From an uncultured Schlesneria sp. (lineage in GTDB: Bacteria; Planctomycetota; Planctomycetia; Planctomycetales; Planctomycetaceae), in assembly GCA_903834925.1 (NCBI GenBank), contig CAILLA010000305.1, positions 7,115 to 71,114 on the forward strand: 64,000 nucleotides of DNA, written 5' to 3'. This document shows, in pieces, positions 30,789 to 50,336 of this stretch. The translations under genes and the position numbers were made by a program. The notes beneath the pieces were generated by a model. That model was not told the origin of the DNA. It made no database searches and saw only the letters and a program-made list of their open reading frames with translations. Positions within the stretch are counted from its first letter, which is position 1; every line of letters begins with the position of its first letter.

Positions 30789-30814
30789 CTCCTGACACAC
30801 ACTCTCATTGCTTG

Positions 30815-32603: not shown

Positions 32604-33079
32604 GATCGACTGTGCTCCTTGGAAGAGTGTTGGTTACCATTTGGACCGACGCAAAAAAAGTTCCACCAGTCCAGGTTGTTAAACTTTTTCAGGGCCTCTC
32701 CTGTCGCCAACTCCTGGAACGGGGCATTGAAATGTCCGACGTTGTGCGAAGTCAGGTGACGGAACCGATCAGCACAAAAAGCAGACTCCCGGAGAGCCTT
32801 GGTTGTTTCTTGGCTTATTGTCGGCCATCACCCCTGATTTGTTGGTCGGGCCTGCTTGGTGGATCACAATGATTCACGGCAGGTTGCCAACGGGATTGCA
32901 CCGACTAGCCGCCCCTCAGCGGGGTGTGCCTCTCTCCGGGAGTCATACTTCATTAAGAATACTGGATGGTCTCGGCAACTGTGGGTCAAACCCGAAATGA
33001 CCCCGACCAAATTCTTCTTGAGTCTAGTTTGTAGACTAAGGAACCGGATGTTTTCTCCGGCTTGAACCGGTGCTGGAAC

Positions 33080-33484: not shown

Positions 33485-33679
33485 GGGACATCCTCCAATT
33501 CAGGGAATTGAAGCCGGGGAGTGATGTCATAGACATCGTAATGCTCCTCGACCTCGCTGTACCTGATACCCAAAGGAGTCCGCACCTGTGGGACGGAGTC
33601 GTTTTTAGCTCATCCCTGTTTTCATTGGCTGGATTAAATTGTTTGAGTGCCAGATTGCAGACGCGTTCAAAAAGGTTGC

Positions 33680-35835: not shown

Positions 35836-35968
35836 GATTCCGTGTTTCCAGTAGCGGTGTGTGTGTCAGTTCGCTTTGGGAGTGTGGATGCTTGGAGCAG
35901 CATCTGTGGGTCAAAGAACTTGGAAGAAATTTGGAGATTGTTCCCATTGGCTTTTAGACCGTGACCAA

Positions 35969-36745
35969 TCAACCATGTCCACGTCCGTTAGTTCCACGGA
36001 GTTGTTGGACTTTGAATTGCAGGTATTCGGCCAGATCATCAACGAGATTCTTCTCTGTCTTGGTGAACCATTTTCGTTGATCTTTCAGAATCTGAACGAT
36101 CCCCTGGTAGCTGAGTTCCCCGATGAATGGCCCCCTTGGGAGACTGCTCAATTTGTCCCCTTGAGGTATAGCTGCTCGTAACCGATCCGGGTTGCGATAC
36201 TCGCGAACCAATGGATTGCCGTCTGATGGCGTTACAAGCATCAGGACGAAGTCTCGGGTTGGAATGTCAAACAGGAGCTTCTCGTCGAACCAACCGTTTT
36301 CCCACAGCCCAACTCGTGCGTTCCTGATGAGTTGATCGGAAGGAAAACCATTTTGTCCGTCGTTATGAATCGTCGTCGCGGATAGAGGAGAACCATATTT
36401 CATCTCGATGAACACCGTTGTTGCCGGGTTCTCCCAGGTAATGACGACGTCGACTTCAGTGAGCCCTTCGTTCCAGTGAAGCTGATGGCGGGGATAGGAC
36501 GGTTGCTTTTGCCAGACATTGATCTTGAGGTTTCGAAAAACTTGTCTTCGGAACCGGTCAGACCCAAGTCCTCGATTGAGGAAATCAGGTAGCCACCATC
36601 TTGGATTGAGGACTTTCAATACTCCAAAAAGTTGTCCCGTAACCACATCTTCACTGGTGGGACGTACAATGAGGGGGCATCGGATTTCACCCTTTCGAGC
36701 TGGTTCACATAGACAACCTCCCTTGCTGTTCAATTCAGTGAGCAT
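35969..36745 (-). CDS. hypothetical protein with a PD-(D/E)xK-like motif
   Basis: Start trimmed to MLTELNSKGG. LTEVDVVITWENPATTVFIEMKYGS gives a D...E-x-K pattern. It overlaps the upstream nuclease gene by 16 nt. Confidence 0.5.
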   Translation of the reverse strand: MLTELNSKGGCLCEPARKGEIRCPLIVRPTSEDVVTGQLFGVLKVLNPRWWLPDFLNRGLGSDRFRRQVFRNLKINVWQKQPSYPRHQLHWNEGLTEVDVVITWENPATTVFIEMKYGSPLSATTIHNDGQNGFPSDQLIRNARVGLWENGWFDEKLLFDIPTRDFVLMLVTPSDGNPLVREYRNPDRLRAAIPQGDKLSSLPRGPFIGELSYQGIVQILKDQRKWFTKTEKNLVDDLAEYLQFKVQQLRGTNGRGHG

Positions 36746-37578
36746 TCCATTGCCTCCCGTGAATCCTGTAGTTGAACCAAATGCTCCTGTGGTTTCGGCC
36801 CCTGGCCCCACTCCCGGCACCTTTGCCGAAAGGAACATGTAGAACAGTTCATCGGACTTTCGACTGGGTAGAAAATTCCCAGATCCACCGCCCGTTGGAT
36901 CGTCTGAACAAGGTCACCCAACCGTCCGCAATCCTCGGAATAGCGGCTGGTCTTCAGCCGTTGCACTTTTGGATTCTTGGTCTTGATGAGGATTGTGTAT
37001 TCAACATTTGGCACCTGTCCCAGGCATTCTTGAACTGCGTGGACATAACAGGTCGGTTGAAGTGATGAACAGACTTCAGATTCAGAATAAGCTCGGCCAC
37101 TTGTCTTGAATTCTTCAACCGTCAGTCCCTGATCCGTGGACTTGATCAGGTCGGTGATGGCGACCAGCGGAGTCTCAAGGTATTCACCTTGGCTATTGCA
37201 CAATGGAACCAGAAATCTGTGTTCGATCGCAACAATCTTTTCTGGTGGAGGTTCCTGAAGATAGATCTCCAGCAGATTGATCCCCTGACCGATGGAATCA
37301 TCCCGGTTATCCCCATCCCGAAATAAAACCTTTTCGTTGGCCTCTTTTTCATCCCAGCATTCGTGAAATACCTTGAAAATTGCCTCTTTATCGATTTCCT
37401 CTTGTTCCTTCACTCGGCGATGATACTCAGCCAGTCCAGCATGAACGGAAGATCCCATGACCAAACCGCAGCTTATGGAATGGCTGGGCAGACTCAGGAT
37501 CCTTTGAAAGAAATATTGAAGTGGACATCGGAGATACTGGCTGATCGCACTGTAGCTCCAGTGGGGACGGTCTCGCAT
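36730..37578 (-). CDS. PD-(D/E)xK nuclease, Cas4/RecB/AddB-type with a 4-Cys Fe-S cluster
   Basis: WSYSAISQYLRCPLQYFF (first Cys), ITDL...VEEFKTSG (D, E-x-K) and the C-terminal CSTCSFRQRC. Confidence 0.8.
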   Translation of the reverse strand: MRDRPHWSYSAISQYLRCPLQYFFQRILSLPSHSISCGLVMGSSVHAGLAEYHRRVKEQEEIDKEAIFKVFHECWDEKEANEKVLFRDGDNRDDSIGQGINLLEIYLQEPPPEKIVAIEHRFLVPLCNSQGEYLETPLVAITDLIKSTDQGLTVEEFKTSGRAYSESEVCSSLQPTCYVHAVQECLGQVPNVEYTILIKTKNPKVQRLKTSRYSEDCGRLGDLVQTIQRAVDLGIFYPVESPMNCSTCSFRQRCREWGQGPKPQEHLVQLQDSREAMECSLN

Positions 37579-37653
37579 CTTAACCCTTTTGCTTCGTGCG
37601 TCTCTGGGATTTCTTCACAAGTCCAATTGTCGCCAGACAACCGAACACTCTCC

Positions 37654-38220
37654 TCAGCGACTCGTGCGGCTACGTCCATTGCCGTTGGATGCAGTTGTTC
37701 CGTTTTGATTGAGGGCATCAATGACGTCACCGGCTTCGCGTTTGGTCAGGTCGTAGACTCCAACTTTTCTGTTGAGAATCCCTTCGATCCGACTTTCCAA
37801 TTGCGGCGACGTGAGTCCCTGACGCTTTCCAAGATTGAGCAGGTATTGCACCTGTTTGTTGGTGGCAACATCTCGGTTGGCATCATGATCGTTGCCGTTC
37901 TGGTTCGTCTGACCATTCCCATTTTGAGAATTGGAAGTCCCGTTGTTAGAAGATTCCTTGACCGATGATCCTGCTTGTTGCCCGTTGGAATGAGCTGGCC
38001 TTTGTTCATCCCGGCTGGCAATGGCGGTCTCTCCTTCGTACCGTTCGATCTGTTGACTCAACGCCTCTTCGGCCACGTCGAAGAATTCTTTAATCCTTTC
38101 GATCATGGCTTCAGGATCATCCATTGCCACACAGATTTCACCTTCAAGATTTAGGCTAAATCCTGTGGAATTGTAATCACGGGACAGTTTCCGGCTGAGT
38201 CCGACGTTGACCTTTAACAT
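37654..38220 (-). CDS. hypothetical protein with a central N/G/Q/S-rich linker
   Basis: 188-aa ORF in the mobile-element module between the DUF932 gene and the nuclease. Confidence 0.5.
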   Translation of the reverse strand: MLKVNVGLSRKLSRDYNSTGFSLNLEGEICVAMDDPEAMIERIKEFFDVAEEALSQQIERYEGETAIASRDEQRPAHSNGQQAGSSVKESSNNGTSNSQNGNGQTNQNGNDHDANRDVATNKQVQYLLNLGKRQGLTSPQLESRIEGILNRKVGVYDLTKREAGDVIDALNQNGTTASNGNGRSRTSR

Positions 38221-38471
38221 GTATTTGCTCCTTGAAAAGAAGAACGCCTCCGTGATCGATTACCCGAATCAAGGAGGCGTCGCTTGCTTGGCAGTGTGTG
38301 AAAAAGGAAACTATGAGTGCAAATCACAACATCAAATGGAAATGGCCGGTACAGAATGGGAGACATCGAGAAGTATCGTGAGATGGACGCCCTGTATATG
38401 AGCGTCTCACTGACTCCAGCCCTGATGTGATTCAGCAGATGAAGGATTGTTCCGACCCGATGTCACTTCTG

Positions 38472-39449
38472 TCAGTTGGCCATTTTGAGGGCGAGTTCCC
38501 AGGCTCGTTCCTTCAGTCTGGCTCCTGACCCAAACCAAGACGATTCCAGTCGGTTGCTAGCCCGCTCTACTGAGGTCTTCCCGCGTGTTGAACGGGCGTG
38601 GTCCACATATTCTGTGACCGCATTCAAAGCTGTCCAGGTTGTATGACGGATCGCTGGCATGTCATGACCGATCCCTTCTTCGAATAGTCTCAGCATTTCT
38701 TGCCGGACGTTTTTCGTTCTGGAGGATTCTCCCTCGGGATTGTCTGGATAAACCAGGAGGAAATACTCTTCCAGTTGACGCTGGCTGGGATAATGATGGG
38801 CTAGCCGGTTGATTTGTTCCTCGGTGTCATCGTAGAACAGTTTCGCCAGTCCCAGGACTTCCTGAGCCTGTCGGACCTTCGTTGCCAAGTCTCCTTTGTG
38901 AATGATGGAAATTCCCTGACCTCGCCCCTTTCGGGTCGCAATGGACAATGTATTACCACACACGACTCTGATCGGAGTCCAGTGGACTCTCAGGGAAGAA
39001 CTCCCATCGTGAGAGTTAGACAGCAGCAAGTACTTCTCGGTGATGTCATCTGAGTTCTTCACCCGAATATCATCCGGCAGTTTCGCGAGCATCCAAACCC
39101 GTTCCCCTTTTCCTAGAGCTCCAGCAGTGTGATACCGCAGGCTACCATCAGCCACAACGGCATCGAGGAATCCAAAGGCTTGGTGGTTCTGGACTGGAAC
39201 ATAGCTAGTTCCAACTACTCCCAGAATTTCCTGAGAATCGGATCTGACCACAGCTTTCCGTTGAGGGATTGGAATACCGTCTGTCGTTTGAAGGTTTCTG
39301 AGTTCAGCAAGGTAATTCAAACCGGCTGCATCGATTGCTTCCCGAGCAGTTGCAGGCTCTTCCAGCCGAGTTCCCAGGCCGTGCCAGGGGATTTCCCCGG
39401 CGTACATCATGGCGGTGTGAGCGTTGGTTTTCGCAAGTTCGTGGGCCAT
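38472..39449 (-). CDS. DUF932 / phage-plasmid-like protein (TIGR03299-like)
   Basis: The N-terminus MAHELAKTNAHTAMMYAGEIPWHGLGTRL is characteristic of the family. Confidence 0.75.
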   Translation of the reverse strand: MAHELAKTNAHTAMMYAGEIPWHGLGTRLEEPATAREAIDAAGLNYLAELRNLQTTDGIPIPQRKAVVRSDSQEILGVVGTSYVPVQNHQAFGFLDAVVADGSLRYHTAGALGKGERVWMLAKLPDDIRVKNSDDITEKYLLLSNSHDGSSSLRVHWTPIRVVCGNTLSIATRKGRGQGISIIHKGDLATKVRQAQEVLGLAKLFYDDTEEQINRLAHHYPSQRQLEEYFLLVYPDNPEGESSRTKNVRQEMLRLFEEGIGHDMPAIRHTTWTALNAVTEYVDHARSTRGKTSVERASNRLESSWFGSGARLKERAWELALKMAN

Positions 39450-39546
39450 CTGAAGTGTCTCCTTGGAAGGTAAATCCTCAAAGTCACACTAGATACCCGC
39501 GTCAAGCGGCATTCACGCGTTCTTGTTTATTCGACAGAACACAGCA

Positions 39547-42159
39547 CTATGTGCCTCTCATTGTCTCATCAAGGCCCGCCTGAAGTTTCTTGATATCCAA
39601 TGGCGTCTCGATTTCCGGTTGAATTAACACCCACTTTACCAGTCCCTCTGCCGCACCTTTATCCAAAAACACGTAGCCTTCTGGGCCCTCATCTTTCATG
39701 ACATGAGCGAGGCGTCCGCTTAGCCAGTTTCGTCTCTTAAAAAACTCATCTTCGTGCAGTCGTACATTGTCGTAAAGTTCAGTCAGGAATTCCTGCAGCA
39801 TAAAAACCAGCTTAACTTCGGAATGGTCGGCTCCAAGGCGATGATCACGCCGAAGAAATTGTCCGCAAGACTTCATCACCGTTTCTGAAACGCGGTTAGT
39901 GATAATCACATGGCCGTTAAGGGTGTTTCCCTGCACTTGAAGCCATGGTTGAGCAAGGAGTGCCTCGACATAGTCGAACATCTTTCGCTTTTCCGAAGCA
40001 TTCAAATCATAACCTTCACCCTTACTAGAAAGCTTTGAATCGTAACTCCAATTGTGCTTCTGCGATTCTCGGAGTCTACCATTTGCTAGGTACACTATGC
40101 TGCAAAAACCGTCTGGGCGGCTTCCACCGCCCCAACGCTCCACATGCGGACAAAGGCTGCGTATCAGGTTGAATACATCCTGTTCATATGCCGTACCGGA
40201 GTAATCGTCCGGCAAATTCTTCAAGACATCTCTTGATGATCTGGCAGCTCGGAAAACTCGCTCCTGCTTTCTCTGGAATACTCCATTGATAGCCACCGTT
40301 AAATCGTCATTGAATCGCTTTTTCGTTACGCCGTCTCCAGAAGCAGCTAAAGCGTATCCCAAGCCAAGATGAGCGACACCGGCAACGTCTAAGTGTGCAG
40401 TTTCGACATGACCTCCTGTGTGAACGACGAGGACAGGAAGCATCGATCGGTCGATCAGTTTCAACAAAGATGGGTTAACGCGTGGCGTGAAATGAACTTG
40501 AACCTGCTGATCAACGTTACCTTGACCTTGAAGTGGGTACATTTCGTGTTCTTCAAAGCTACTTGGAGTACTCCGTAATCTCCATCCAGCGGCATCTTTG
40601 ATAATTTTTGCGGTTTCCTTGATAATTGCCTTTGGGACTTGTTCAAGGAACTTGACTTTCAAAGTCTTTACGTTGCCGCCACATTTTGGACATTCGTCAA
40701 TAGTTTCATCTTCAATGAGCTTCTGACAAAATGCCCCTGCACACTGTCGAATCTGATCTTCCCGTACTTTGATGACTCCAATTGCAAGCAACTTTCCCAA
40801 TATTTCCTTCTGGAAATCTGGCACTTTGTCTAGACGGTCAATCTCCAGCAAATTGTTGAGGATGTCTACGCTTCCCATTGGGAGCTTTGTTGGATCAATT
40901 GGACTCCCCAAAGGAATCCCGAATTGTCTCCTGAATTCATCTTCAATTGTCGAACACTCGGCTGAACTTAAGCCGGTGTCGTCCATACGGAAACGAACTA
41001 CGCCGGTTTGGTCGACATCCACATGAACTAAAAACGTTTTGTCTGAAGTGCGGAATTTCAAACTTTTGAGATCGGCAAGTGATCGGACACGGACTGTCTC
41101 ACGCTCTTTGAGCCACATTAAGTCTCGCCTAATTGACTGTCCGTCGAATGCGGATTCGATCATTATGGGAGCGTGGCATGGTCCCATACTACGGCGGAAT
41201 GCGATCCCAATGATGTCGAGCTTGGAGTCGTTTTCATACTCACCCAGAAGCTTTGACTCAACGTCACCTGGATCATAATCAGTGAAGAGCTGCTCTGGGT
41301 CTGGATTCAATGGGAGTTTTGAACGAGTCAGCAGCCAGTTAGAAACAACCTCGACAACACGCTTGTCACCAGCTTTAATTTCAATGCGTGGTGGCTGGTC
41401 TCTAAACCCAATCATTACCCACCCAAAGGTCGTGAAGTGGGCAAACACCTGGTGAAAATCGGCTGTAAGAGATGGGGCATTTTCTCGCTCCAAAAACAAT
41501 ACCGTGAAGCCGTTTTCAAGCCTTTCTTTTGCCTTAAAACGAACTGTCCGATTATCCGAAAGGCTAGACAGGTCATTGGCAAGGTCATTTATTGATTCTT
41601 CAACTACTCGTATTTCGTCATCGCTCAATGCACGAGTTATCGGAAGATGGGATACGGTTGGACGGCTTCTCCAAAGACTTCGCAAATATACTCGTTTAAG
41701 AGAGGATGGGCTGGCATTAAATAGCAGCAGAAGCTGCGTGAATTGGCGTAGTTTACCACGGCTCGCTCCTGATTCGCGGAGCAGTGACTGAAGTTTTCGT
41801 TTGTCTGCATCAGAGAAGATTCGATCGAATTCTTCCTTGAGGCTTTCCCCTTTTCTACGAAGAAACTCTGCCAGGAAAGTAAAGGTCTCATTTTCGCAAG
41901 ACGACAATAGCAGGTTAGTCAATTGCTCATGGGTGGCATTCTTCTCTGTGGAGAGTTTCGCTTTTTCACAGAGAAGACGAATGTTCGCGGTGGGGCATTT
42001 GGAAAGTCGGTGCTTAGCCCTGTGGTAAGCTTTCAGATCACCATCAGGTCGTAGTTGTAACCGGATAGCCACTGGAAAGACGCCCAAACTTTCCCAAAAT
42101 GAGTCGGACTGTCTGCAGAGAAATAGTGATGAAGCGTCTTGAACCAACATAGTCTTCAT
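39547..42159 (-). CDS. large protein with a C-terminal FokI-type restriction-endonuclease cleavage domain, a central Zn-ribbon and an N-terminus of unknown function
   Basis: WGGGSRPDGF...WSYDSKLSSKGEGYDLNASEKRKMFDYVEAL parallels FokI GGSRKPDGA...VDTKAYSGGYNLPIGQADEMQRYVEEN (FokI recalled from memory). CPKCGGNV lies mid-protein. Confidence 0.65.
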   Translation of the reverse strand: MKTMLVQDASSLFLCRQSDSFWESLGVFPVAIRLQLRPDGDLKAYHRAKHRLSKCPTANIRLLCEKAKLSTEKNATHEQLTNLLLSSCENETFTFLAEFLRRKGESLKEEFDRIFSDADKRKLQSLLRESGASRGKLRQFTQLLLLFNASPSSLKRVYLRSLWRSRPTVSHLPITRALSDDEIRVVEESINDLANDLSSLSDNRTVRFKAKERLENGFTVLFLERENAPSLTADFHQVFAHFTTFGWVMIGFRDQPPRIEIKAGDKRVVEVVSNWLLTRSKLPLNPDPEQLFTDYDPGDVESKLLGEYENDSKLDIIGIAFRRSMGPCHAPIMIESAFDGQSIRRDLMWLKERETVRVRSLADLKSLKFRTSDKTFLVHVDVDQTGVVRFRMDDTGLSSAECSTIEDEFRRQFGIPLGSPIDPTKLPMGSVDILNNLLEIDRLDKVPDFQKEILGKLLAIGVIKVREDQIRQCAGAFCQKLIEDETIDECPKCGGNVKTLKVKFLEQVPKAIIKETAKIIKDAAGWRLRSTPSSFEEHEMYPLQGQGNVDQQVQVHFTPRVNPSLLKLIDRSMLPVLVVHTGGHVETAHLDVAGVAHLGLGYALAASGDGVTKKRFNDDLTVAINGVFQRKQERVFRAARSSRDVLKNLPDDYSGTAYEQDVFNLIRSLCPHVERWGGGSRPDGFCSIVYLANGRLRESQKHNWSYDSKLSSKGEGYDLNASEKRKMFDYVEALLAQPWLQVQGNTLNGHVIITNRVSETVMKSCGQFLRRDHRLGADHSEVKLVFMLQEFLTELYDNVRLHEDEFFKRRNWLSGRLAHVMKDEGPEGYVFLDKGAAEGLVKWVLIQPEIETPLDIKKLQAGLDETMRGT

Positions 42160-42249
42160 GACCCTTGTCGCGATCGTTCACAAATAAATGATGTGGTTGA
42201 CGGATTCGTTCCATCACCGCATTCTCCTACCGTCCAGCTTTCTCAAATA

Positions 42250-42798
42250 TCATCCGGCCACCTCGTTGATATCGGAAAAACCGAGGTCCTGATCCTTTGA
42301 TTTTGGCTTGAGGGTTGCCAAAGAGCCTGCTTTCCGCCGATTGATCATTTCGGCAGCAAGGATCATCGAAGGCACAATTCGCCCAGACCTCTTCCCAAAC
42401 TCCTGCTGGAGCTTCGTTGCCAAATCAACATTGAGGGCGAAGTTGTCAGATGCAATTTGAAGTTCTTCATGGATTGAGTCTAGATGACTCAATTCTTCTT
42501 CGGAGAACTCTAGTCGGGGCCGGATGAATTCTCCTCCAGCTTCACGGCCAAGCTTTTCCCACTTGCCCTTTTTCCTTCGTGTAATCATGTAATGAAGAAC
42601 ATCGGGACCTGACTCATTTCTGGCCGTCAGATTATTCCAACTCGTGACCAAATGAATCAAATCCTCAGGTCGCTGAGGATATTGGTCCGTAGGAATGTTT
42701 AACTCCCGGTACAGTGTTCGCAAAACCTCATCCTCGTGAGGCAGCATCCGTAAAGTACGGCGTGTTTGAGGCATACAGCCTGTCCTCCAAATTGACAA
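42250..42798 (-). CDS. hypothetical protein
   Basis: 182-aa ORF between the XRE-ImmA regulator and the FokI-like gene, in the same orientation with short gaps. Confidence 0.5.
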   Translation of the reverse strand: MSIWRTGCMPQTRRTLRMLPHEDEVLRTLYRELNIPTDQYPQRPEDLIHLVTSWNNLTARNESGPDVLHYMITRRKKGKWEKLGREAGGEFIRPRLEFSEEELSHLDSIHEELQIASDNFALNVDLATKLQQEFGKRSGRIVPSMILAAEMINRRKAGSLATLKPKSKDQDLGFSDINEVAG

Positions 42799-42825
42799 AC
42801 TTTCCCACGGAATTGGCTCCCTCCG

Positions 42826-43968
42826 TTATCGTGGAAATCTAATGGTTTCAGCCCCTTCGTCCTCAGAGGCACAATCACCAGGAACTCCCATCGCTTGATT
42901 GAGGCGTTCCCGAATAGCTTCAGGCCGAACCCCGGCCAAATCGGATACTTCTTTCAATGACATTTTACCTGTTGCAATTGCTTCATCAATCAACTGCTCA
43001 AACCTGGTTGCTCTATCCGGGCGGATAGTCCCTGGCTCATTACTCTTCCACCCACGACGGGCAAACTCTATCCAGAGAGATTTGGCTTCAGGCTTAGTTA
43101 TGAACCCAAGTTTTTCCGCCCTGTATACCATTGCTGCTAAGGAAATCCCGAATTTCTCTTTAAACTGCACAAGGCGGATCATTGATTTGCCGGTAAACGC
43201 CTTTTTGAGCTGGTTGTTGGGTAGAAGCAGATGTGATCCGAAATCAAAAGCTCTGGATTCAATCAACTTGTCCTCAGCTTCGTCGTGATCACAGTCTCCG
43301 TAGAGTACATGAGCCAACTCATGGGCAGCATTTAGTCGCACTCTATCATTTGATACTGTCGGGTTCAAAACCACGACATATTCCCCTGAATATCTTGCTG
43401 CAAGTCCATCAATTCTCAGTTCTGTGGGCTCTTCAAAGACACGAATTCCAAACCCCTCCAAGACTTCGACGATATTTGGAACCGGCTCCTCAATCGATAT
43501 TCCCAGCGTTTCTCGAACGGCTCGACTCAATGCTTCAGGATCAAGTCGTGGAACGGATTTAATCTTCCCTGCCGTGGCTCGAAGGGGCTTCTTGAGCCGC
43601 ACCTCAACTGCCACATAGGCGTCAATCCATCGCTGCACATTCGCTTCAAACTGATGCAGGTCTCCTGCCTTTACCTTGGACTTTAGATTGCGATACCTCA
43701 CACCTTTGAGGGTTTCACCACGTTCCAGAAACCAGTTAAGTGGTCGGTCATACGTTTCCGCCAGAGCCGCCAAAACGTCCATTGGAGGAACTGATTTTCC
43801 AGCCTCATAGTTTGCGATGGTTGCATGAGAAATAGGAAATCGTTCACTTAACCGATCGGCTACCGCCCTTGTTGACATCTTTGTTGATGTACGAGCAGTC
43901 TTGAGCTTGTTTGCAAGAGATTCCCGCACATCTGCGGCTCCTGACATTCGAATTATGGGGATTCCCAT
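42826..43968 (-). CDS. XRE-family HTH fused to an ImmA/IrrE (COG2856) metallopeptidase
   Basis: HTH (LKTARTSTKMSTRAVADRLSERFPISHATIANYEAGKSVP) and a zinc-peptidase HEXXH motif (AAHELAHVLYG). Confidence 0.85.
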   Translation of the reverse strand: MGIPIIRMSGAADVRESLANKLKTARTSTKMSTRAVADRLSERFPISHATIANYEAGKSVPPMDVLAALAETYDRPLNWFLERGETLKGVRYRNLKSKVKAGDLHQFEANVQRWIDAYVAVEVRLKKPLRATAGKIKSVPRLDPEALSRAVRETLGISIEEPVPNIVEVLEGFGIRVFEEPTELRIDGLAARYSGEYVVVLNPTVSNDRVRLNAAHELAHVLYGDCDHDEAEDKLIESRAFDFGSHLLLPNNQLKKAFTGKSMIRLVQFKEKFGISLAAMVYRAEKLGFITKPEAKSLWIEFARRGWKSNEPGTIRPDRATRFEQLIDEAIATGKMSLKEVSDLAGVRPEAIRERLNQAMGVPGDCASEDEGAETIRFPR

Positions 43969-44229
43969 CCTGGTTTATCCGTAAATTCAGTTTTACAAAT
44001 CATCCTCTGCACGAGATCATGTTTTACACTTTCGTCGCGAGTTGTCAAGCCTCGTACCCCCAAGTCTCTCAGCACACATGCTGGCTCCGATTGGTTTTGG
44101 CTACTTGTTTGATTTCTGAAACTCCTGCTGCCTCAGAATCATGTTTCCGTCCATTAGACTCAATGCAGGTGAGCTTCGGGCTTCCGTCAATCTGGATTTG
44201 TGAAAAGGTAATTCAGATCTTCGGTGTCA

Positions 44230-44589
44230 TCAAATTCCGAAGAAGTCTTTGCACGTTTTCATCACCACCGCTTTGAGGATTTCAAACGGAACAGATGCAG
44301 ACTTCTCTTTCAATGTGGAAATCGCCTTATTCCAGACGGTGTCATTTCTGGCAGCGTCTAAAAACTCGTGGCCAGCCCATGTCAGAGACCTCGGTACCCA
44401 AGAAGATTCTGAGAAATCAGAGAGGTCAGTGGCATCCAGTAAACCAGCATCGTGAAGCATTTTGACGTGGTAACTGACCAGACTGGGATTTCTGCTTGGA
44501 AGATTGATGTTGACCCACTCATCTGGGGCTTGATCTGATTTTTCTACAGCGAGCAAAATCTCTCTTACGAGCTCTAGGTCTCGCTTCAT
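44230..44589 (-). CDS. DUF2513-like winged-helix protein
   Basis: MKRDLELVREILLAVEK...VSYHVKMLHDAGLLDA...LTWAGHEFLDAARN. The start overlaps the hsdS stop. Confidence 0.65.
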   Translation of the reverse strand: MKRDLELVREILLAVEKSDQAPDEWVNINLPSRNPSLVSYHVKMLHDAGLLDATDLSDFSESSWVPRSLTWAGHEFLDAARNDTVWNKAISTLKEKSASVPFEILKAVVMKTCKDFFGI

Positions 44590-45713
44590 TGGCCTCCTCC
44601 AGATTCTTGCTGGTTGAATATTTGGTTAATGATGGCTGGTAACAGGGCTTGCGTCTCAGCAGCAGCAGCCGTCAGGAGTTCACGGGCCGCTTCAACTTTC
44701 TCAAATAACTCCCCGAACCATATCTGTTCCTTATAAGCAGGAACCGGGGTCGGAACTTCGAGCAACACTTTGGCACTAGTTGTTCTATTGCGGTCCGCAC
44801 TTCCAGGCGACGCTTGACCTACGTGGTGTAGTCCTTCGGACGTGAGGAGAAAGAAACAAATAAAGCGGGATGTGGCTACACCGGAGAGTGGAACGTAAGT
44901 CAAGTACCGATGCGAACCGTATCGACTATCGTCTTCAGGCTTGGCCACGGCAATCGCCCCCTCCCAAGCCTTGATGTTGCTAATAAGGATATCTCCGGCA
45001 TGCACAAGTTGGGGTCTTTCCCAAGTGATATCGCATCCTTGTAGCGGTGGGTTGTGAAATGTCCCCTTTCCAAAGGATCTGACGGAGACCCCCGGGTATT
45101 CAGTAAATGGGTCAACCAAAACTGGTCGCCTAACAAGTGGAGCAACATCTCCCAATCGATGGCGATCAGCATCTCGTACAATTCGATTGTACGCAGAAAG
45201 AAGCATCCCTTGGAAATGTTCGCCAATTTCATTCAACCGCGTGTTTGCCGCTTGAATTTTGAGACTCAATTCGTCGAGGTATTCTACCACTTGCTTTTGT
45301 TTGGCCAATGATGGAAGGCTGACATGAACATTTGCGATGTCTCGTTCTTTGAGGGAGACGTTTGCAGTGCCTTTCATTAATGGAACAAACAGGGAGTCCT
45401 TCTTTGCCAGAAGCAAGTAATAGAGATACTTTGCATCACACCTTTGGTTATCTTTGGTTTGAAGGGCCACCAGGAGGTCTGCCAACGCAAATTTGCCATC
45501 CTGATAGTGAATACGATGAAGAGCAGCGTCACCGTGGCCAGTTGACGAAACCAGCGGAATACAGACTGTAGGCCCTTCAAGCTGATAAGTACTTGAAGTC
45601 CGTCGGTAGGCTGCAGTAACGACGAGTGGGTATGCCCCAACCTCCGTCTTGAGCGTTGGTGATTCACCTCGAACCAAGTGACAGAGGTCCCCAAGTCGAA
45701 AGCTTTGAGTCAT
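44586..45713 (-). CDS. hsdS: type I restriction-modification specificity subunit
   Basis: Two target-recognition halves separated by a conserved coiled spacer (LPSLAKQKQVVEYLDEL...; VPAYKEQIWFGELFEKV...). It has 4-nt overlaps with both hsdM and the DUF2513 gene. Confidence 0.85.
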   Translation of the reverse strand: MTQSFRLGDLCHLVRGESPTLKTEVGAYPLVVTAAYRRTSSTYQLEGPTVCIPLVSSTGHGDAALHRIHYQDGKFALADLLVALQTKDNQRCDAKYLYYLLLAKKDSLFVPLMKGTANVSLKERDIANVHVSLPSLAKQKQVVEYLDELSLKIQAANTRLNEIGEHFQGMLLSAYNRIVRDADRHRLGDVAPLVRRPVLVDPFTEYPGVSVRSFGKGTFHNPPLQGCDITWERPQLVHAGDILISNIKAWEGAIAVAKPEDDSRYGSHRYLTYVPLSGVATSRFICFFLLTSEGLHHVGQASPGSADRNRTTSAKVLLEVPTPVPAYKEQIWFGELFEKVEAARELLTAAAAETQALLPAIINQIFNQQESGGGQ

Positions 45714-47251
45714 GGCTTCCTCCCCAAAAGATCTTTGATTTCCTGCAAAATCTCTGCAAGTTGGAATTCTTTTCTGAGGATATCTTCTATCAGTTGTTCA
45801 GGCGGCAAATGATCTATGTCGGACTTTGCGTTCGGGTTCTTGATGTCCAGATTGCAGTTCGTTTCAAGAATTTGTTTCGCCGGAATGTTCCAAGCTTGTT
45901 CTGTGACTTTTCGTTTCCCCCACCACTTGAGGCAGCCTGCGAACTCTTCGAACTGGACGGGTTGTGTCTTTGTATATTGTCGCCGCCCTTCAGGCAGGGG
46001 TTGCTCATAAAACCAGACATGCTTCGTTGGTCCAGTCCGATCAAAGAATAACAAGTTGGTGGGAATGCTCGTATAGGGAGCAAAGACTCCATTTGGCAGT
46101 CTGACGATCGTGTGGAGATTGAACCTCGTCAGTAATTCTTGCTTTATTCGTGCACATACTCCTTCAGCGAAGAGAACGCCGTTAGGAACAACTACTGCCG
46201 CTCGACCTGGTTTCGGAGTAGCTCTCAGCTTACGCATGATGAGTTGCATGAAAAGAAGAGCGGTTTCTGAAGTCTGTTTGTCTTCAGCGAAATTCCCTTG
46301 AATTCCTTTTTCTTCCTCGCCCCCAAATGGAGGATTGGTCAGAATCACATCTACCCTGTCGTGTTCGTTGATATCAGTAAGTTTCTGAGAAAGACTATTT
46401 CCCTTGACGATTTGCGGCGACTCCAGCCCATGCAGAAGCAGATTCATCTGACAAAGCATGTAGGGCAGTGTTTTTGCTTCGTTCCCGTAGATACTTCGCT
46501 CTTGAAGGAGTCGTCGGTCTTGAACCGTATTGCATTGCTTCTCCATGTGCCTGAATGCTTCCACCAGAAACCCCCCGGTTCCACATGCCGGGTCAAGAAC
46601 GGTTTCTCCCAATTGTGGATTCATGACTTCCACCATGAAACGAACTACGGCCCTGGGAGTGTAGAATTCCCCCGAGTCCCCGGCTGCATCCCTCATCTCC
46701 TTGAGCATGCTCTCGTAAAGATGGCCCAGAGTGTGGATTTCTTCCGTGGAGTCAAAGTGAATGGCTCCAATCTTGTTAATCACGTCCCTCAGCAGGTAGC
46801 CGCTGTCCATGCGGTTCGTGACCCCTGAGAAAACAGAAGCCACCACATCTCGACGGTCATCTCCGTTACCACCCTGAAGACTTCTGAGGTATGCAATCAA
46901 CCCCTGGCCCTTGGTTCCATCAGGCAGGGTGGCTTCATCGTTGTTGATGAAGTGCTTCAGAACATCACCACTGATGCCATCTTCTTTCGCAGCCCAGTCA
47001 CGCCATCTGTATGGTGATTCGATGACCGGCCTAAACTTCTGTCGTTTCAGTTTGGCTCGTTCTTCTTCAATTCGTTCCTGATCGTCCAGAAACTTCAGGA
47101 ACATCACCCACGTCAGCATGGGTAGTCGGTCCAGGTCACCGTTAAGCCCCTTATCCTTCCGCATGATGTCACGTGCAGACTTGACGAGACTCCCAAGTCG
47201 TTGGGCTGTCGTGAGCGGTTGGTCTGTCTTCTTTACTGCCTTCTTGGCCAT
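45710..47251 (-). CDS. hsdM: type I restriction-modification N6-adenine DNA methyltransferase subunit
   Basis: HsdM N-terminal region (RDIMRKDKGLNGDLDRLPMLTWVMFLKFLDD), FYTPRAVVRFMVEVMNP, DPACGTGGFL and ILTNPPFGG. Confidence 0.92.
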   Translation of the reverse strand: MAKKAVKKTDQPLTTAQRLGSLVKSARDIMRKDKGLNGDLDRLPMLTWVMFLKFLDDQERIEEERAKLKRQKFRPVIESPYRWRDWAAKEDGISGDVLKHFINNDEATLPDGTKGQGLIAYLRSLQGGNGDDRRDVVASVFSGVTNRMDSGYLLRDVINKIGAIHFDSTEEIHTLGHLYESMLKEMRDAAGDSGEFYTPRAVVRFMVEVMNPQLGETVLDPACGTGGFLVEAFRHMEKQCNTVQDRRLLQERSIYGNEAKTLPYMLCQMNLLLHGLESPQIVKGNSLSQKLTDINEHDRVDVILTNPPFGGEEEKGIQGNFAEDKQTSETALLFMQLIMRKLRATPKPGRAAVVVPNGVLFAEGVCARIKQELLTRFNLHTIVRLPNGVFAPYTSIPTNLLFFDRTGPTKHVWFYEQPLPEGRRQYTKTQPVQFEEFAGCLKWWGKRKVTEQAWNIPAKQILETNCNLDIKNPNAKSDIDHLPPEQLIEDILRKEFQLAEILQEIKDLLGRKP

Positions 47252-47367
47252 CTTTTTGTTCTATCGTATAAACCACGTTTGACCCACACACCTGTCTCGG
47301 CCGAATTAACCAATAAAGTGCACTTTAATTTACTCACCGGTCGACCATTTACATCCACAACACCCCC

Positions 47368-49119
47368 TCAGCTATTGTTCGCATTTAGAAGCGTCTCCAA
47401 TTCTTCAGGATGAATGTCTATTGGCATCTCATAGGTCACGCCTCCAATGACAAGGGGTACGTATGCGTCAGACCCTGATGAAAGTTTCTGTTGCCATTTC
47501 CGTGAACGACATGAGTTCCATATTGTTTGAGGCGATTGAAGATGACGCTGTCTAAGCCTATCCTCGAAAGTGATCAGTGAAATCGCAGGGACAGTCTCTG
47601 CCGCATAGTTTCCACTCGGCTCTGAATCGGGCATCAGCACAATCCCGAAATACTCGTCGACCAGTTCCCATCTAACAAACTTAAACATTTCACGCTTTTG
47701 TTCCACAGACATGCCCCGAAGGATCCTTTCACACAAGAGCACCTGCTGCTTCCCAACCTCTGCCTCCTTTGTTGTCGACTCAATTTCGTTCATGTCATCC
47801 GCCGCAATCACACACTTCGCTTGTACCAAGAGGACCTGTGTGGGCACGGAGTCTCGGTAGGCTAACAAATCTAATTCTGAGCATTCGTTCCCGGCATACA
47901 TTTGAACATTGGTCTTGAATGCGTATTTGGCATTCTTTTGGATATGGAGGCCGAATCTGAGTAAAAGCCTCTTCTCCCGTGTGCCATTAAGAGTCGCACC
48001 CAAATTCCTCGTCGAACGGTTCCTACACAACGCTTTAAGGACATTTCTAGGCTGCCGGCTCAGCGAGACTACTAATGGGGACCAAATGTAATCGTTTTGC
48101 ATCGTGAATAGTGGCCGTAAGAACACATCTCCTTTGATATCTCTCTGGTCGTAAGTCAAAAAGCTTGTGATCTTCTGAACAATCTCGGCACTGAGTTTCG
48201 TGTGCGTCACCATAGCATCAAGAAAGCCCCTTCCCGAGACGACCTGAGTCGGCATGCACTCAGACTGAGGCACCTTTTCTTCAAACAATCTCAAATACAA
48301 TCTCATCGCTACATTAGACCAACCCAGGAGTACTCTCCAATAACATGTAAAGTCTGAATAGCTGAAGCCACCGAGGTCGCTCGTAGGTTCCAAGTCAACA
48401 ACGTCAGGCTGCTCAACCGATGCAGATGCATCTAATACCGCTTCACTCAAATACGGAAGTATACTGGTATGATGAATTCTTCCCCTACTTAACACCGGCT
48501 CGATTGTGGCTACGGTATCTGCGATGTAACGCAGCGAACCATCGTTTTCGTTGGATAACATTCCCTTCTGCCTGTGATGAACCAAGTCGGCAAAGTGCAG
48601 GTGAGCACCCGTCCTCTTTAAGGAAGGTCGTAAGAAGCGGATTGTCCTTTTGGACCTGTCGGCCTGAACTTCAAACAATCCTTTTCCGAACCCCACGTGC
48701 AGTAATTCCAACTGAGCGTATGCTGTTGCATGGGAATGGAACTGACCTGCTAGATTGAGTTGTTCCCCTGTAATTGAGTTGATCGTCTTTTGTGCAAGTC
48801 GCCCGGCTAGCCATCGGATTGAGATGGTCAGCCCCTCGTTCCTTGAATGTAAGTACTGCCATACCCCAACTGAGCCCAACGTCGGCTGTACAATCCGCAT
48901 TACGATGGCCATTCCATCGAACGCAGTTAGGAGACTCAAGAGAAGTGTGTCTGGATCGATTGACCATGCTGGTAAGTGAGTATGGAATGGATCAAGAACA
49001 GTGGTCTCCATCTCACGAAGAAAGGCATGTGCCTCCTCTCCTGACAGGGGAAGAGATTCAGGGGCGATTAATATATCTTTTCTTAGAGGCATTTTACATC
49101 TGGCATTTTTGAGCAGCAA
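47368..49119 (-). CDS. hypothetical 583-aa protein embedded in the type I R-M operon (possible PD-(D/E)xK-like motif near the C-terminus)
   Basis: Long ORF between the RES gene and hsdM. SELDLLAYRDSVPTQVLLVQAKCV gives a D...Q-x-K pattern. No family recognised. Confidence 0.6.
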   Translation of the reverse strand: MLLKNARCKMPLRKDILIAPESLPLSGEEAHAFLREMETTVLDPFHTHLPAWSIDPDTLLLSLLTAFDGMAIVMRIVQPTLGSVGVWQYLHSRNEGLTISIRWLAGRLAQKTINSITGEQLNLAGQFHSHATAYAQLELLHVGFGKGLFEVQADRSKRTIRFLRPSLKRTGAHLHFADLVHHRQKGMLSNENDGSLRYIADTVATIEPVLSRGRIHHTSILPYLSEAVLDASASVEQPDVVDLEPTSDLGGFSYSDFTCYWRVLLGWSNVAMRLYLRLFEEKVPQSECMPTQVVSGRGFLDAMVTHTKLSAEIVQKITSFLTYDQRDIKGDVFLRPLFTMQNDYIWSPLVVSLSRQPRNVLKALCRNRSTRNLGATLNGTREKRLLLRFGLHIQKNAKYAFKTNVQMYAGNECSELDLLAYRDSVPTQVLLVQAKCVIAADDMNEIESTTKEAEVGKQQVLLCERILRGMSVEQKREMFKFVRWELVDEYFGIVLMPDSEPSGNYAAETVPAISLITFEDRLRQRHLQSPQTIWNSCRSRKWQQKLSSGSDAYVPLVIGGVTYEMPIDIHPEELETLLNANNS

Positions 49120-49195
49120 AGAAAGCGGGTAACTCAGCCAAAAATAGTCATTGGCTCACTTCGCAGTATTAAAACTGCCGCGTTCATTCGAAATA

Positions 49196-50323: not shown

Positions 50324-50336
50324 GGGAGTGTCCTAT

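What the first reader, a model, noticed from the sequence alone, without database searches (positions are those of the whole stretch)
39547..43968. Three-gene module: XRE-ImmA/IrrE protease-regulator, a 182-aa unknown, and an 870-aa protein with a FokI-type cleavage domain but no cognate methyltransferase
The C-terminal ~200 aa of the 870-aa ORF match the FokI catalytic domain point by point: GGSR-PDG (D450 equivalent), YDSK (D467-x-K469 equivalent), then GYDL and an acidic helix (KRKMFDYVEAL). The remaining ~650 aa have no motif I recognise except a CPKCGG zinc ribbon, so the recognition or sensor part is novel.

No methyltransferase is adjacent. The type I hsdM is a separate operon upstream, so this is not a classical type IIS R-M pair. 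Instead the gene is preceded, on the same strand with short gaps, by a 182-aa unknown and a fused XRE-HTH/HEXXH ImmA-type peptidase. In ICEBs1 (ImmA/ImmR) and Deinococcus (IrrE/DdrO), this switch de-represses genes on DNA damage or invasion.

That arrangement suggests an inducible or guarded nuclease effector.
Basis: partly seen in the sequence, partly recalled or inferred. Interest (0 to 1): 0.8.

Follow-up and report, generated by a model that had tools for sequence, protein, structure and literature searches.

The report
Switch-controlled stand-alone FokI-like defence nuclease
A mobile island carries an unannotated DNA-cutting enzyme (a FokI-like cutter joined to an RdgC-like DNA-binding fold) just downstream of a portable two-gene switch that precedes other anti-phage systems in other genomes; only the pair, not the trio, is a conserved unit.

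Summary
All three ORFs are real, on the minus strand at the stated coordinates.

- **Gene 1 (380 aa).** A fused XRE-HTH/M78 peptidase. It matches RmrA, the RosmerTA antitoxin, at 6e-43 and also matches CapP and CapH.
- **Gene 2 (174 aa).** An uncharacterised internal tandem repeat of a three-helix, HTH-like unit. In 13 of 13 loci, this window included, it follows the same XRE-M78 gene behind a conserved promoter/operator.
- **Downstream slot.** The genes after this pair vary: the nuclease here, CBASS in L025, Pycsar-like in L032, and convergent genes elsewhere. A sister island (L030) has a different gene in the nuclease's slot.
- **Gene 3 (870 aa).** It belongs to an unannotated family of about 274 clusters at 50% identity, found in Planctomycetota, Obscuribacterales and haloarchaea.
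  - AlphaFold2 gives pLDDT 92.5. Foldseek matches FokI and Nt.BspD6I for the C-terminal part and RdgC for the middle.
  - Cys473, Cys490, Cys493, E659, D707 and K709 are invariant across 74 members.
  - No methyltransferase is adjacent to any homologue. Neighbours are BREX, Hachiman, McrBC or nothing.

Verdict: a portable CapH-CapP-fusion/RmrA-like switch with a swapped-in, methyltransferase-independent nuclease as cargo. This is a new variant of known kinds. The nuclease's target and the switch's control of it are inferred, not shown.

The parts
44021..44048 (-). Conserved sigma-70-type promoter of the switch operon. TTGACA lies at 44048-44043, followed by a 14-nt spacer and an extended -10 TG-TAAAAC at 44028-44021 (16 nt between the two hexamers).
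   Evidence: The same layout, CTTGACA-N16/17-TGTAAAAY, occurs upstream of the XRE-M78 gene in 13 of 13 loci. Function as a promoter is inferred.
43978..44000 (-). Second TTTGTAAAAC box with an imperfect inverted partner (ATTTGTAAAAC-TGA-ATTTACGG), lying between the promoter and the start codon. Candidate operator for the XRE HTH.
   Evidence: Columns are invariant across 9 aligned loci. TTGTAAAAY with at most 1 mismatch occurs in this island only at these two places, and there is no copy before the nuclease gene. Binding is inferred.
42826..43968 (-). 380-aa fused XRE-HTH / M78 (ImmA/IrrE-type) zinc peptidase. RmrA-like, or CapH-CapP-fusion-like, regulator/antitoxin.
   Evidence: Pfam HTH_3 and Peptidase_M78. 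PADLOC RmrA 5.8e-43 over the full length, capP 1.4e-13, capH 2.6e-6. phrog_2439 2e-50.
42250..42774 (-). 174-aa partner protein (182 aa from TTG 42798). Two tandem copies of a roughly 67-aa three-helix, HTH-like unit, each ending in an RRK-G motif. Uncharacterised family.
   Evidence: 147 homologues at 49-87% identity. Internal duplication by hhalign, P=4.7e-9. AlphaFold2 pLDDT 79.7 with two three-helix bundles. Weak homeodomain and MarR likeness. No Pfam, PADLOC, NCBIfam or PHROG hit. Follows the XRE-M78 gene in 13 of 13 loci.
39547..42159 (-). 870-aa stand-alone nuclease (867 aa from ATG 42150), a member of an unannotated family.
   Evidence: 274 clusters at 50% identity with E<=1e-3. AlphaFold2 pLDDT 92.5, pTM 0.85. 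No hit in Pfam, PADLOC, NCBIfam, PHROGs or PDB sequences.
41665..42159 (-). Residues 1-165: basic all-helical N-terminal domain (pI 9.9).
   Evidence: Secondary structure of the model and pI. Function unknown.
40774..41664 (-). Residues ~166-462: alpha/beta region with an RdgC-like (RdgC/RexA/Chl4) fold. The boundaries are approximate.
   Evidence: Foldseek RdgC 2owl/2owy, E 4e-4 to 2e-3, probability 1.0, target-normalised TM-score 0.42-0.47. Phage RdgC-like proteins at probability 1.0 in BFVD. No support at sequence level. The assignment to these residues comes from secondary structure and a weak hhalign match (residues 239-290); Foldseek did not report ranges.
40639..40773 (-). Residues 463-507: Cys4 zinc ribbon (C473, C478, C490, C493; CPKCGG).
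   Evidence: C473, C490 and C493 are invariant and C478 nearly invariant in 74 sequences. Weak zinc-ribbon hits.
39754..40212 (-). Residues ~650-802: FokI-type PD-(D/E)xK cleavage domain (E659, P-D683-G, D707-S-K709).
   Evidence: Invariant catalytic columns. hhalign against FokI, P=1.7e-4, with motifs in register. Foldseek FokI and Nt.BspD6I.
27820..62027 (.). About 34.2-kb integrated island that carries the module. It holds tRNA-Leu (27766-27850), an integrase (27927-29201, minus strand) and 32-bp direct repeats at 27820-27851 and 61996-62027.
   Evidence: GC content drops from about 0.53 to about 0.48 inside the island.

Best explanation
The locus joins two separable units inside a tRNA-Leu-integrated island.

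**Unit 1: a portable two-gene switch.**
- It consists of a fused XRE-HTH/M78 peptidase (RmrA-like, equivalent to a CapH-CapP fusion) and a conserved 174-aa tandem-HTH partner.
- It is transcribed from its own conserved promoter, which carries two TGTAAAA boxes.
- By analogy with CapH/CapP, ImmR/ImmA and DdrO/IrrE, the HTH represses this promoter until the peptidase is activated, for example by single-stranded DNA from damage or infection. That step is inferred.

**Unit 2: whatever lies in the variable slot 3' of the pair.**
- Here it is an 870-aa nuclease, 90 bp downstream on the same strand. No terminator and no operator of its own were found, so it is probably co-transcribed and therefore switch-controlled (inferred).
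- The nuclease is methyltransferase-independent. It has a basic helical N-domain, an RdgC-like DNA-binding and dimerising fold, a Cys4 zinc ribbon, and a FokI-type cleavage domain with an intact E...PD...DxK site.
- Proposed mechanism (inferred): the RdgC-like part binds DNA without sequence specificity. It pairs two FokI-like domains to make double-strand breaks in invading DNA. Alternatively it cuts the host's own DNA as an abortive-infection toxin kept silent by the switch.
For: **The pair is a unit.**
- XRE-M78 plus the 174-aa gene are adjacent in this window and in 12 other loci (103/105, 118-120).
- The two proteins diverge together: 59-69% and 50-67% identity.
- All 13 loci share the promoter/operator.

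**The 3' slot is variable.**
- L025: CapV-like patatin phospholipase (3e-48), 36 bp after the pair, then a CD-NTase (7e-65).
- L032: a class III cyclase-like gene, 66 bp after the pair, then PycTM.
- L022: a gene with a BrxA domain lies about 900 bp downstream.
- L021, L023, L030: convergent genes.
- The downstream proteins are unrelated to one another.

**Sister island L030.** It shares hsdM (75%), XRE-M78 (68%), DUF932 (62%), PDDEXK (46%) and the 288-aa gene (58%). It has a PAD_porph gene where the nuclease lies here.

**Identity of the regulator.** RmrA 6e-43, capP 1e-13 and capH 3e-6. CapH-CapP fusions in front of CBASS and DISARM are reported in 10.1101/2022.04.27.489752. RosmerTA pairs a Zn-peptidase antitoxin with diverse toxins (10.1101/2022.05.11.491447, PMC10440598).

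**The nuclease.** Structure and fold matches. Invariant catalytic and Cys columns. hhalign against FokI.

**Defence-island neighbours of homologues.**
- BrxL in L008.
- HamA plus a DEAD-box helicase and type I R-M in L011.
- A McrB-McrC-homologue operon in four haloarchaeal plasmids.
- A different XRE-M78 gene 32 bp upstream in L010.

**Read-through.** No terminator or stable structure lies between gene 2 and the nuclease gene.
Against: - No experiment or expression data exist. Co-transcription of the nuclease with the switch is inferred from spacing only.
- The operator motif is absent in front of the nuclease gene.
- Three of the 12 other pair loci have no co-oriented downstream gene, so the pair can exist on its own. 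This fits a self-contained toxin-antitoxin equally well.
- Most nuclease homologues have no XRE-M78 neighbour, so the family does not need this switch.
- The RdgC likeness is at fold level only (target-normalised TM-score 0.42-0.47). It has no sequence support, and its residue range was not reported by the search.
- The role of the 174-aa protein is unknown. Its HTH likeness is below significance.
- The sample of contexts is small, and the haloarchaeal cases may be one mobile cassette.
Confidence: 0.55

Rival explanations
1. The three genes form one dedicated, co-evolved system. The XRE-M78 protein and the 174-aa protein would be specific guards of this nuclease.
For: Same strand with short gaps of 51 and 90 bp. 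No terminator between the genes. The trio is intact in three other metagenome contigs. L010 also has an XRE-M78 gene directly before a homologue.
Against: The contigs are 100% identical copies of the same island. Ten other nuclease loci lack the 174-aa gene, and nine of them lack any XRE-M78 gene. Twelve other pair loci lack the nuclease. Sister island L030 has swapped the nuclease for another gene.
Confidence: 0.08
2. The pair is a closed RosmerTA-type toxin-antitoxin or abortive-infection module, with the 174-aa protein as toxin and the XRE-M78 protein as antitoxin. The nuclease is an independent neighbour in a defence island with its own expression.
For: Full-length RmrA match. RosmerTA toxins are diverse and of unknown function (10.1101/2022.05.11.491447, PMC10440598). 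The pair occurs without co-oriented cargo in L021, L023 and L030. Most nuclease homologues stand alone.
Against: The 174-aa protein matches no RmrT model in PADLOC. It is soluble, near neutral (pI 6.5) and looks like a tandem DNA-binding HTH rather than a known toxin fold. CBASS and Pycsar-like operons start 36 and 66 bp after the pair with no room for a separate promoter region.
Confidence: 0.2
3. The pair is the island's own ImmR/ImmA-type life-cycle switch. It would control excision and transfer genes downstream (DUF932, PDDEXK and others). The nuclease is a passenger inserted between the switch and its real targets.
For: The island is integrated at tRNA-Leu and has an integrase. The pair, DUF932, 188-aa, PDDEXK and 289-aa backbone is shared with L030. 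L024 and L032 carry TrwC relaxases nearby. ICEBs1 ImmR/ImmA is a precedent (10.1101/2022.04.27.489752).
Against: L004 and L023 show no mobile-element genes around the pair. In L025 and L032 the immediately following genes are immune operons, not transfer genes.
Confidence: 0.12
4. The nuclease is a modification-dependent (type IV-like) restriction enzyme. This concerns its target and is compatible with any of the regulatory models above.
For: No cognate methyltransferase anywhere. In four haloarchaeal plasmids a full-length member is the third gene after McrB- and McrC-like genes, with DUF262 (GmrSD-like) genes on the opposite strand nearby in two of them.
Against: No recognised modified-base reader domain (SRA, EVE/YTH, PUA and similar) was detected by Pfam or Foldseek. 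The haloarchaeal cases may be a single cassette.
Confidence: 0.2
5. It is an ordinary type IIS restriction endonuclease whose methyltransferase is unlinked or lost.
For: FokI-type cleavage domain at the C-terminus.
Against: No adjacent methyltransferase in any of about 15 contexts. The N-terminal part shows no significant sequence match to the FokI recognition domain and contains an RdgC-like fold. An unprotected sequence-specific type IIS enzyme would be lethal.
Confidence: 0.03

Closest known systems
FokI and Nt.BspD6I (type IIS restriction enzyme / nickase cleavage domain, Pfam PF09254)
   Same: C-terminal PD-(D/E)xK domain with P-D-G and D-x-K motifs in register with FokI D450/D467/K469. 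Foldseek probability 0.99-1.0. The layout is a DNA-binding part followed by a non-specific cleavage domain.
   Different: No cognate methyltransferase. Below Pfam thresholds. The upstream part is a helical domain, an RdgC-like fold and a Cys4 zinc ribbon rather than the FokI D1-D3 recognition domain. An extra C-terminal helical tail is present.
RdgC / lambda RexA / Iml3-Chl4 fold (non-specific DNA-binding dimers; PMC11077077)
   Same: The middle of the protein matches RdgC and phage RdgC-like proteins by fold in two independent structure libraries. RexA shows that this fold is already used in phage exclusion.
   Different: No sequence similarity. Here the fold is fused to a nuclease, which I did not find described. 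Ring formation and DNA binding are untested.
RosmerTA (RmrA antitoxin plus RmrT toxin)
   Same: Gene 1 is a full-length RmrA-type HTH/M78 protein. Effector-like partners are variable, and the setting is a defence island.
   Different: Neither downstream protein matches a known RmrT. A conserved extra 174-aa protein sits between the RmrA-like gene and the variable gene.
CapH/CapP (and ImmR/ImmA, DdrO/IrrE) damage-responsive repressor-peptidase switches
   Same: An HTH repressor plus an M78 peptidase encoded just upstream of immune operons. CBASS and Pycsar-like operons follow the pair in L025 and L032. Fused CapH-CapP forms are already reported.
   Different: HTH and peptidase are fused. A second, tandem-HTH protein is always present. 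The pair is co-oriented with its cargo. Activation by single-stranded DNA and self-cleavage are untested.

Membership tests
FokI-type cleavage domain (PF09254) | Catalytic P-D...D-x-K residues in register with FokI D450, D467 and K469 | tested here: met
   hhalign P=1.7e-4 aligns D683, D707 and K709 with them. D707 and K709 are invariant, and P682 and G684 nearly invariant, in 74 members.
FokI-type cleavage domain (PF09254) | Fold similarity to solved FokI-family cleavage domains | tested here: met
   Foldseek 2fok E 7.5e-4, probability 0.99. Nt.BspD6I (5liz, 2ewf and others) probability 1.0. The model has pLDDT 92.5.
FokI-type cleavage domain (PF09254) | Scores above the Pfam model's gathering threshold | tested here: not met
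   No hit for the window protein. Only 1 of 56 members at 5e-4. A precomputed hit for P0002 is marked faint.
FokI-type cleavage domain (PF09254) | Double-strand cleavage that depends on dimerisation | not testable with these tools
   Needs biochemistry.
Type IIS restriction-modification system | Cognate methyltransferase adjacent or fused | tested here: not met
   None next to the gene here or in L001, L008-L012, L015-L017 or the haloarchaeal plasmids. The only methyltransferases nearby belong to type I R-M, or probably to BREX in L008, where the methyltransferase itself was not seen.
Type IIS restriction-modification system | Sequence-specific recognition domain | tested here: inconclusive
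   No sequence match to the FokI recognition domain. An RdgC-like non-specific DNA-binding fold was found instead. Specificity itself was not tested.
RosmerTA | RmrA-type antitoxin (HTH plus M78 zinc peptidase) | tested here: met
   14 PADLOC RmrA models match, best 5.8e-43, covering residues 20-356.
RosmerTA | Adjacent protein belonging to a known RmrT toxin family | tested here: not met
   No PADLOC hit for the 174-aa or the 870-aa protein, nor for 39 and 56 of their relatives.
RosmerTA | Toxicity neutralised by the antitoxin; phage defence | not testable with these tools
   Needs expression and plaque assays.
CapH/CapP-type immune regulators | HTH repressor plus M78 peptidase | tested here: met
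   PADLOC capP 1.4e-13 (residues 145-285) and capH 2.6e-6 (residues 16-95) in a single polypeptide. Pfam domains agree.
CapH/CapP-type immune regulators | Encoded immediately upstream of an immune operon | tested here: met
   Orthologous pairs precede CBASS in L025 and a Pycsar-like operon in L032. The pair precedes the nuclease here.
CapH/CapP-type immune regulators | Peptidase stimulated by single-stranded DNA cleaves the repressor and induces the operon | not testable with these tools
   Needs biochemistry and reporters. The mechanism is described in PMC13228613.
RdgC family (PF04381) | RdgC fold | tested here: met
   2owl and 2owy at probability 1.0, target-normalised TM-score 0.42-0.47. 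Phage RdgC proteins at probability 0.97-1.0. The similarity is moderate.
RdgC family (PF04381) | Sequence membership | tested here: not met
   No Pfam RdgC hit in 56 members. hhalign against E. coli RdgC gives P=0.056.
Type IV (modification-dependent) restriction | Recognised modified-base reader domain | tested here: not met
   None found by Pfam or Foldseek. Only the McrBC neighbourhood in haloarchaea hints at it.

The most novel reading that the evidence does not exclude
The 870-aa family would be a new class of methyltransferase-independent defence nuclease. An RdgC-like ring would load onto DNA without sequence recognition and pair two FokI-type domains to cut it.

The XRE-M78 plus tandem-HTH pair would be a previously unrecognised three-part variant of the CapH/CapP switch. 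It would work as a plug-in, damage-sensing front end for interchangeable immune cargo: CBASS, Pycsar or this nuclease. The 174-aa protein would be an obligatory second DNA-binding component, either a peptidase substrate or an activator.
Probability: 0.3. Interest if true: 0.75.

Novelty: new variant of a known kind. Interest (0 to 1): 0.6.

Why it matters
- **An unannotated nuclease family.** A family of about 274 clusters at 50% identity, spanning bacteria and archaea, sits in defence islands without any annotation. It combines a FokI-type cutter with a DNA-binding fold (RdgC-like) that I did not find described in fusion with a nuclease. This gives a concrete candidate for a new restriction-like immune mechanism. 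It may also offer a new non-specific cleavage module for protein engineering.
- **A portable regulatory pair.** The conserved pair (fused HTH-peptidase plus tandem-HTH partner, with a shared promoter/operator) precedes CBASS, Pycsar-like and nuclease cargo. This extends the known CapH/CapP logic and makes it testable. A single reporter experiment could show whether one portable switch governs unrelated immune systems.
- **Annotation rule.** The work shows that the apparent three-gene module is really a two-gene cassette plus a cargo slot. That is the correct unit for annotation and for defence-system discovery pipelines.

Tried and rejected
**Searches that gave nothing useful**
- Direct sequence searches of the 870-aa protein against Pfam, NCBIfam, PADLOC, PHROGs and PDB sequences returned nothing useful.
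- The word-indexed protein search found only one relative. A repeat with a 74-sequence profile found nothing new, so that search was wasted.
With a five-sequence alignment it found 7 genome loci and 3 metagenome loci, and none in viral contigs.
- BLASTP against the FokI cleavage domain gave E=0.2.
- hhalign of the N-terminal profile against E. coli RdgC was not significant.
- Literature searches for an RdgC-FokI fusion, or for RdgC-like nucleases in defence, found nothing.

**Regulatory signals**
- The consensus promoter/terminator scan was uninformative.
- A search for a shared operator between the switch promoter and the region before the nuclease gene found only a 9-mer and no TGTAAAA box.
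- The RNA fold of that spacer had a z-score of 0.24.

**The 174-aa protein**
- Not a sigma factor and not a known RmrT: Pfam and PADLOC gave nothing consistent across 39 members.
- Foldseek and the PDB profile search gave only sub-threshold homeodomain and MarR likeness.
- No match in plasmid records.

**Hypotheses rejected**
- The downstream 233-271-aa genes in L004, L022 and L024 are not a conserved third gene. They are unrelated to one another and have no Pfam hits.
- Classical type IIS R-M: rejected.
- A conserved trio: rejected.

Full report
**1. Observation**

The three ORFs are present on the minus strand exactly where stated.
- 43968..42826 encodes 380 aa.
- 42798..42250 encodes 182 aa as the longest ORF. 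Homologues and gene callers start at ATG 42774, giving 174 aa.
- 42159..39547 encodes 870 aa, or 867 aa from ATG 42150.

Upstream, hsdM, hsdS and a DUF2513 gene overlap one another and end 261 bp before gene 1.

**2. Gene 1**

Pfam finds an XRE-type HTH (residues 22-80) and Peptidase_M78 (residues 171-284, HELAH motif). PADLOC matches 14 RmrA models, the best at 5.8e-43 over nearly the full length. It also matches capP (1.4e-13) and capH (2.6e-6). NCBIfam's spr1629 repressor/antitoxin model scores 1e-25 but falls below its cut-off.

RmrA is the Zn-peptidase antitoxin of RosmerTA, whose toxins are diverse and of unknown function (10.1101/2022.05.11.491447; PMC10440598). CapH/CapP is an HTH repressor plus M78 peptidase that induces immune operons on DNA damage. 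Fused CapH-CapP forms have been reported in front of CBASS and DISARM (10.1101/2022.04.27.489752; PMC13228613). Gene 1 is thus a known kind of protein.

**3. Gene 2 and the pair**

The 174-aa protein has 147 homologues at 49-87% identity, nearly all 174-179 aa long. None hits Pfam, PADLOC, NCBIfam or PHROGs.

It is an internal duplication of a roughly 67-aa unit (hhalign of the two halves, P=4.7e-9). AlphaFold2 gives two three-helix bundles at pLDDT 79.7. Foldseek and a PDB profile search give only sub-threshold likeness to homeodomains (a double homeodomain at E=0.34) and to MarR. A tandem-HTH DNA-binding role is therefore a lead, not a result.

In this window and in 12 other loci the gene directly follows a 369-382-aa XRE-M78 gene that is 59-77% identical to the window's.

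All 13 loci share a non-coding architecture upstream of the XRE-M78 gene:
- CTTGACA, then 16-17 nt, then TGTAAAAY, which reads as an extended -10.
- About 24 nt further on, ATTTGTAAAAC followed by an inverted TT(G/T)ACGG.

In the window these elements lie at 44048-44021 and 44000-43978. TTGTAAAAY occurs nowhere else in the island. This looks like an autoregulated promoter, although binding has not been tested.

**4. The slot after the pair is variable**

| Locus | What follows the pair |
|---|---|
| L025 (IMG/VR contig) | CapV-like patatin phospholipase (3e-48), 36 bp after the pair, then a CD-NTase (7e-65): a CBASS operon |
| L032 | Class III cyclase-like gene, 66 bp after the pair (adenylate cyclase 6e-5, cytidylate cyclase 0.02), then PycTM: Pycsar-like |
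| L022 | A 233-aa gene, then a BrxA-domain gene |
| L005 | A Dam-type methylase |
| L024 | An unknown 271-aa gene |
| L004 | A 44-aa ORF, then an unknown 236-aa gene |
| L021, L023, L030 | The next gene is convergent |

The downstream proteins are unrelated to one another.

L030 is a sister of this window's island. It shares hsdM (75%), XRE-M78 (68%), DUF932 (62%), a 173-aa gene (49% to the window's 188-aa gene), PDDEXK_1 (46%) and a 288-aa gene (58% to the window's 289-aa gene). It carries a PAD_porph gene on the other strand exactly where the window has the nuclease. The nuclease is therefore swapped-in cargo, not a fixed third member.

**5. Gene 3**

The word-indexed search found only one relative, at 30% identity. 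An exhaustive HMMER search found 274 clusters at 50% identity (117 of them at E<=1e-30), mostly 830-900 aa and matched end to end.

In a 74-member alignment the only invariant columns are C473, C490, C493, E659, D707 and K709. C478, G677, G678, P682 and G684 are nearly invariant. This is the signature of a Cys4 zinc ribbon plus a PD-(D/E)xK site.

AlphaFold2 with this alignment gives pLDDT 92.5 and pTM 0.85. Foldseek results:
- Against the PDB: RdgC (2owl and 2owy, E 4e-4 to 2e-3, probability 1.0, target-normalised TM-score 0.42-0.47), FokI (2fok, 7.5e-4, probability 0.99) and the FokI-like nickase Nt.BspD6I (probability 1.0), with weak Chl4 hits.
- Against BFVD: phage RdgC-like proteins (probability 1.0) and a phage restriction endonuclease (probability 0.98).

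hhalign of the C-terminal profile against the FokI cleavage domain (sequence recalled from memory) gives P=1.7e-4. It places P-D683-G on P-D450-G and D707-S-K709 on D467-T-K469.

Sequence models do not reach the family. Pfam FokI_cleav_dom hits 1 of 56 members, there is no RdgC hit, and hhalign against E. coli RdgC is not significant.

RdgC, lambda RexA and Iml3-Chl4 share a fold used for non-specific DNA binding by dimers, and RexA is a phage-exclusion protein (PMC11077077).

From the model's secondary structure I assign these regions:
- Residues 1-165: a basic helical domain (pI 9.9).
- Residues ~166-462: the RdgC-like region.
- Residues 463-507: the zinc ribbon.
- Residues ~508-649: an alpha/beta domain plus a helical linker.
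- Residues ~650-802: the cleavage domain.
- The remainder: a helical tail.

The RdgC boundaries are approximate because the search reports no residue ranges.

**6. Contexts of nuclease homologues**

| Locus | Context |
|---|---|
| L008 (Pirellulales) | Follows brxL |
| L009 (Schlesneria) | Follows a Tle1-like hydrolase |
| L010 (Planctomyces) | Follows, by 32 bp, a different XRE-HTH/M78 gene, with no 174-aa gene |
| L011 (Obscuribacterales) | Next to HamA plus a DEAD-box helicase (Hachiman) and a DUF2513-hsdS pair |
| L012 | Next to SNF2 and DEAD helicases |
| L001, L015-L017 | Alone |
| Four haloarchaeal plasmids | A full-length member (hmmsearch about 1e-70) is the third gene after McrB- and McrC-like genes |
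| Haloferax larsenii plasmid | Split into two ORFs |
| Halomontanus plasmid | Follows a reverse transcriptase |

No methyltransferase is adjacent in any of these. The trio recurs only in 100% identical copies of this island.

**7. Setting**

The module lies in an integrated island of about 34.2 kb. The island is bounded by tRNA-Leu (27766-27850), an integrase (27927-29201) and 32-bp direct repeats at 27820-27851 and 61996-62027. GC content is lower inside it.

**8. Explanation**

*Best supported.* A portable two-gene switch (RmrA-like, or CapH-CapP-fusion-like, protein plus a tandem-HTH partner) sits in front of a variable slot. Here the slot holds a methyltransferase-independent nuclease. The 90-bp spacer has no terminator, no stable structure and no operator, so co-transcription from the switch promoter is the simplest reading. 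That reading is inferred.

*How the nuclease chooses its target is unknown.* I propose non-specific DNA binding and dimerisation through the RdgC-like part, which would bring two FokI-type domains together.

*Rivals.*
- A closed toxin-antitoxin pair with an unrelated neighbour.
- An island life-cycle switch with a passenger gene.
- A type IV-like specificity for the nuclease.
- A dedicated trio (largely refuted).
- An orphan type IIS enzyme (rejected).

**9. Novelty**

Gene 1 is a known kind. The 174-aa partner family and the 870-aa architecture are undescribed as far as these libraries and literature searches show. Overall this is a new variant of known kinds: a regulated, stand-alone restriction-like nuclease.

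Noticed in passing
window 27766-62027: An integrated island of about 34.2 kb. It has tRNA-Leu (27766-27850), a tyrosine integrase (27927-29201, minus strand), and a 32-bp direct repeat of the tRNA 3' end at 27820-27851 and 61996-62027. GC is about 0.48 inside and about 0.53-0.56 outside.
   Followed up: partly
window 47368-50323 (minus strand): The type I R-M operon is interrupted. Between hsdR (52703..50337) and hsdM (47251..45710) lie a 375-aa gene (phrog_7835 at 3e-64, with a weak RES-domain hit just below the Pfam cut-off) and a 583-aa gene with no hits. They may be an embedded toxin or defence pair.
   Followed up: partly
window 44230-44589 (minus strand); L011 8976-9335: A DUF2513 gene overlaps the end of hsdS here. 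It is again next to a 65%-identical hsdS in an Obscuribacterales genome (DUF2513 itself 63% identical). This suggests DUF2513 is an accessory gene of this type I R-M lineage.
   Followed up: no
window 52993-57042 (minus strand): A 1349-aa ORF inside the island has no Pfam hit at all.
   Followed up: no
window 33680-39449 (minus strand); L030 8709-14525: A conserved island backbone is shared with L030: DUF932, a 188-aa gene, a PDDEXK_1 (Cas4-like) gene, a 289-aa gene and, further on, a WYL regulator. In the window a 365-aa DnaE-like fragment lies between the 289-aa gene and the WYL gene. The 289-aa and PDDEXK ORFs overlap by about 100 nt in the window.
   Followed up: partly
L025 4806-9102: In an IMG/VR viral contig the XRE-M78/174-aa pair directly precedes a CBASS operon: a CapV-like patatin phospholipase, a CdnG-like CD-NTase and a 141-aa gene. 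An HTH/WYL-like 343-aa gene lies just upstream of the pair.
   Followed up: partly
L032 7568-8898: The pair precedes a class III cyclase-like gene and a PycTM gene (Pycsar-like). MazE/PIN genes, a TrwC relaxase and an ArdC gene are nearby, suggesting a conjugative element.
   Followed up: partly
L019, L026, L027, L028 (haloarchaeal plasmids): A conserved three-gene operon: an AAA_5 (McrB-like) ATPase, a McrC-like protein and a 786-aa member of the nuclease family. DUF1156, and in two of the plasmids DUF262, genes lie on the opposite strand nearby. This may be a McrBC variant with a third subunit.
   Followed up: partly
L013 7998-8651; L014 8040-8462: Two Planctomycetota genomes hold short ORFs (217 and 140 aa) that correspond only to the FokI-like C-terminal domain, at 49-53% identity. 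They could be stand-alone cleavage domains or gene remnants.
   Followed up: no
L018 4754-7257: In a Haloferax larsenii plasmid the family member is split into two overlapping ORFs (390 and 444 aa), next to an AddAB-like helicase-nuclease pair and an integrase. It is either a natural split or a frameshift.
   Followed up: no
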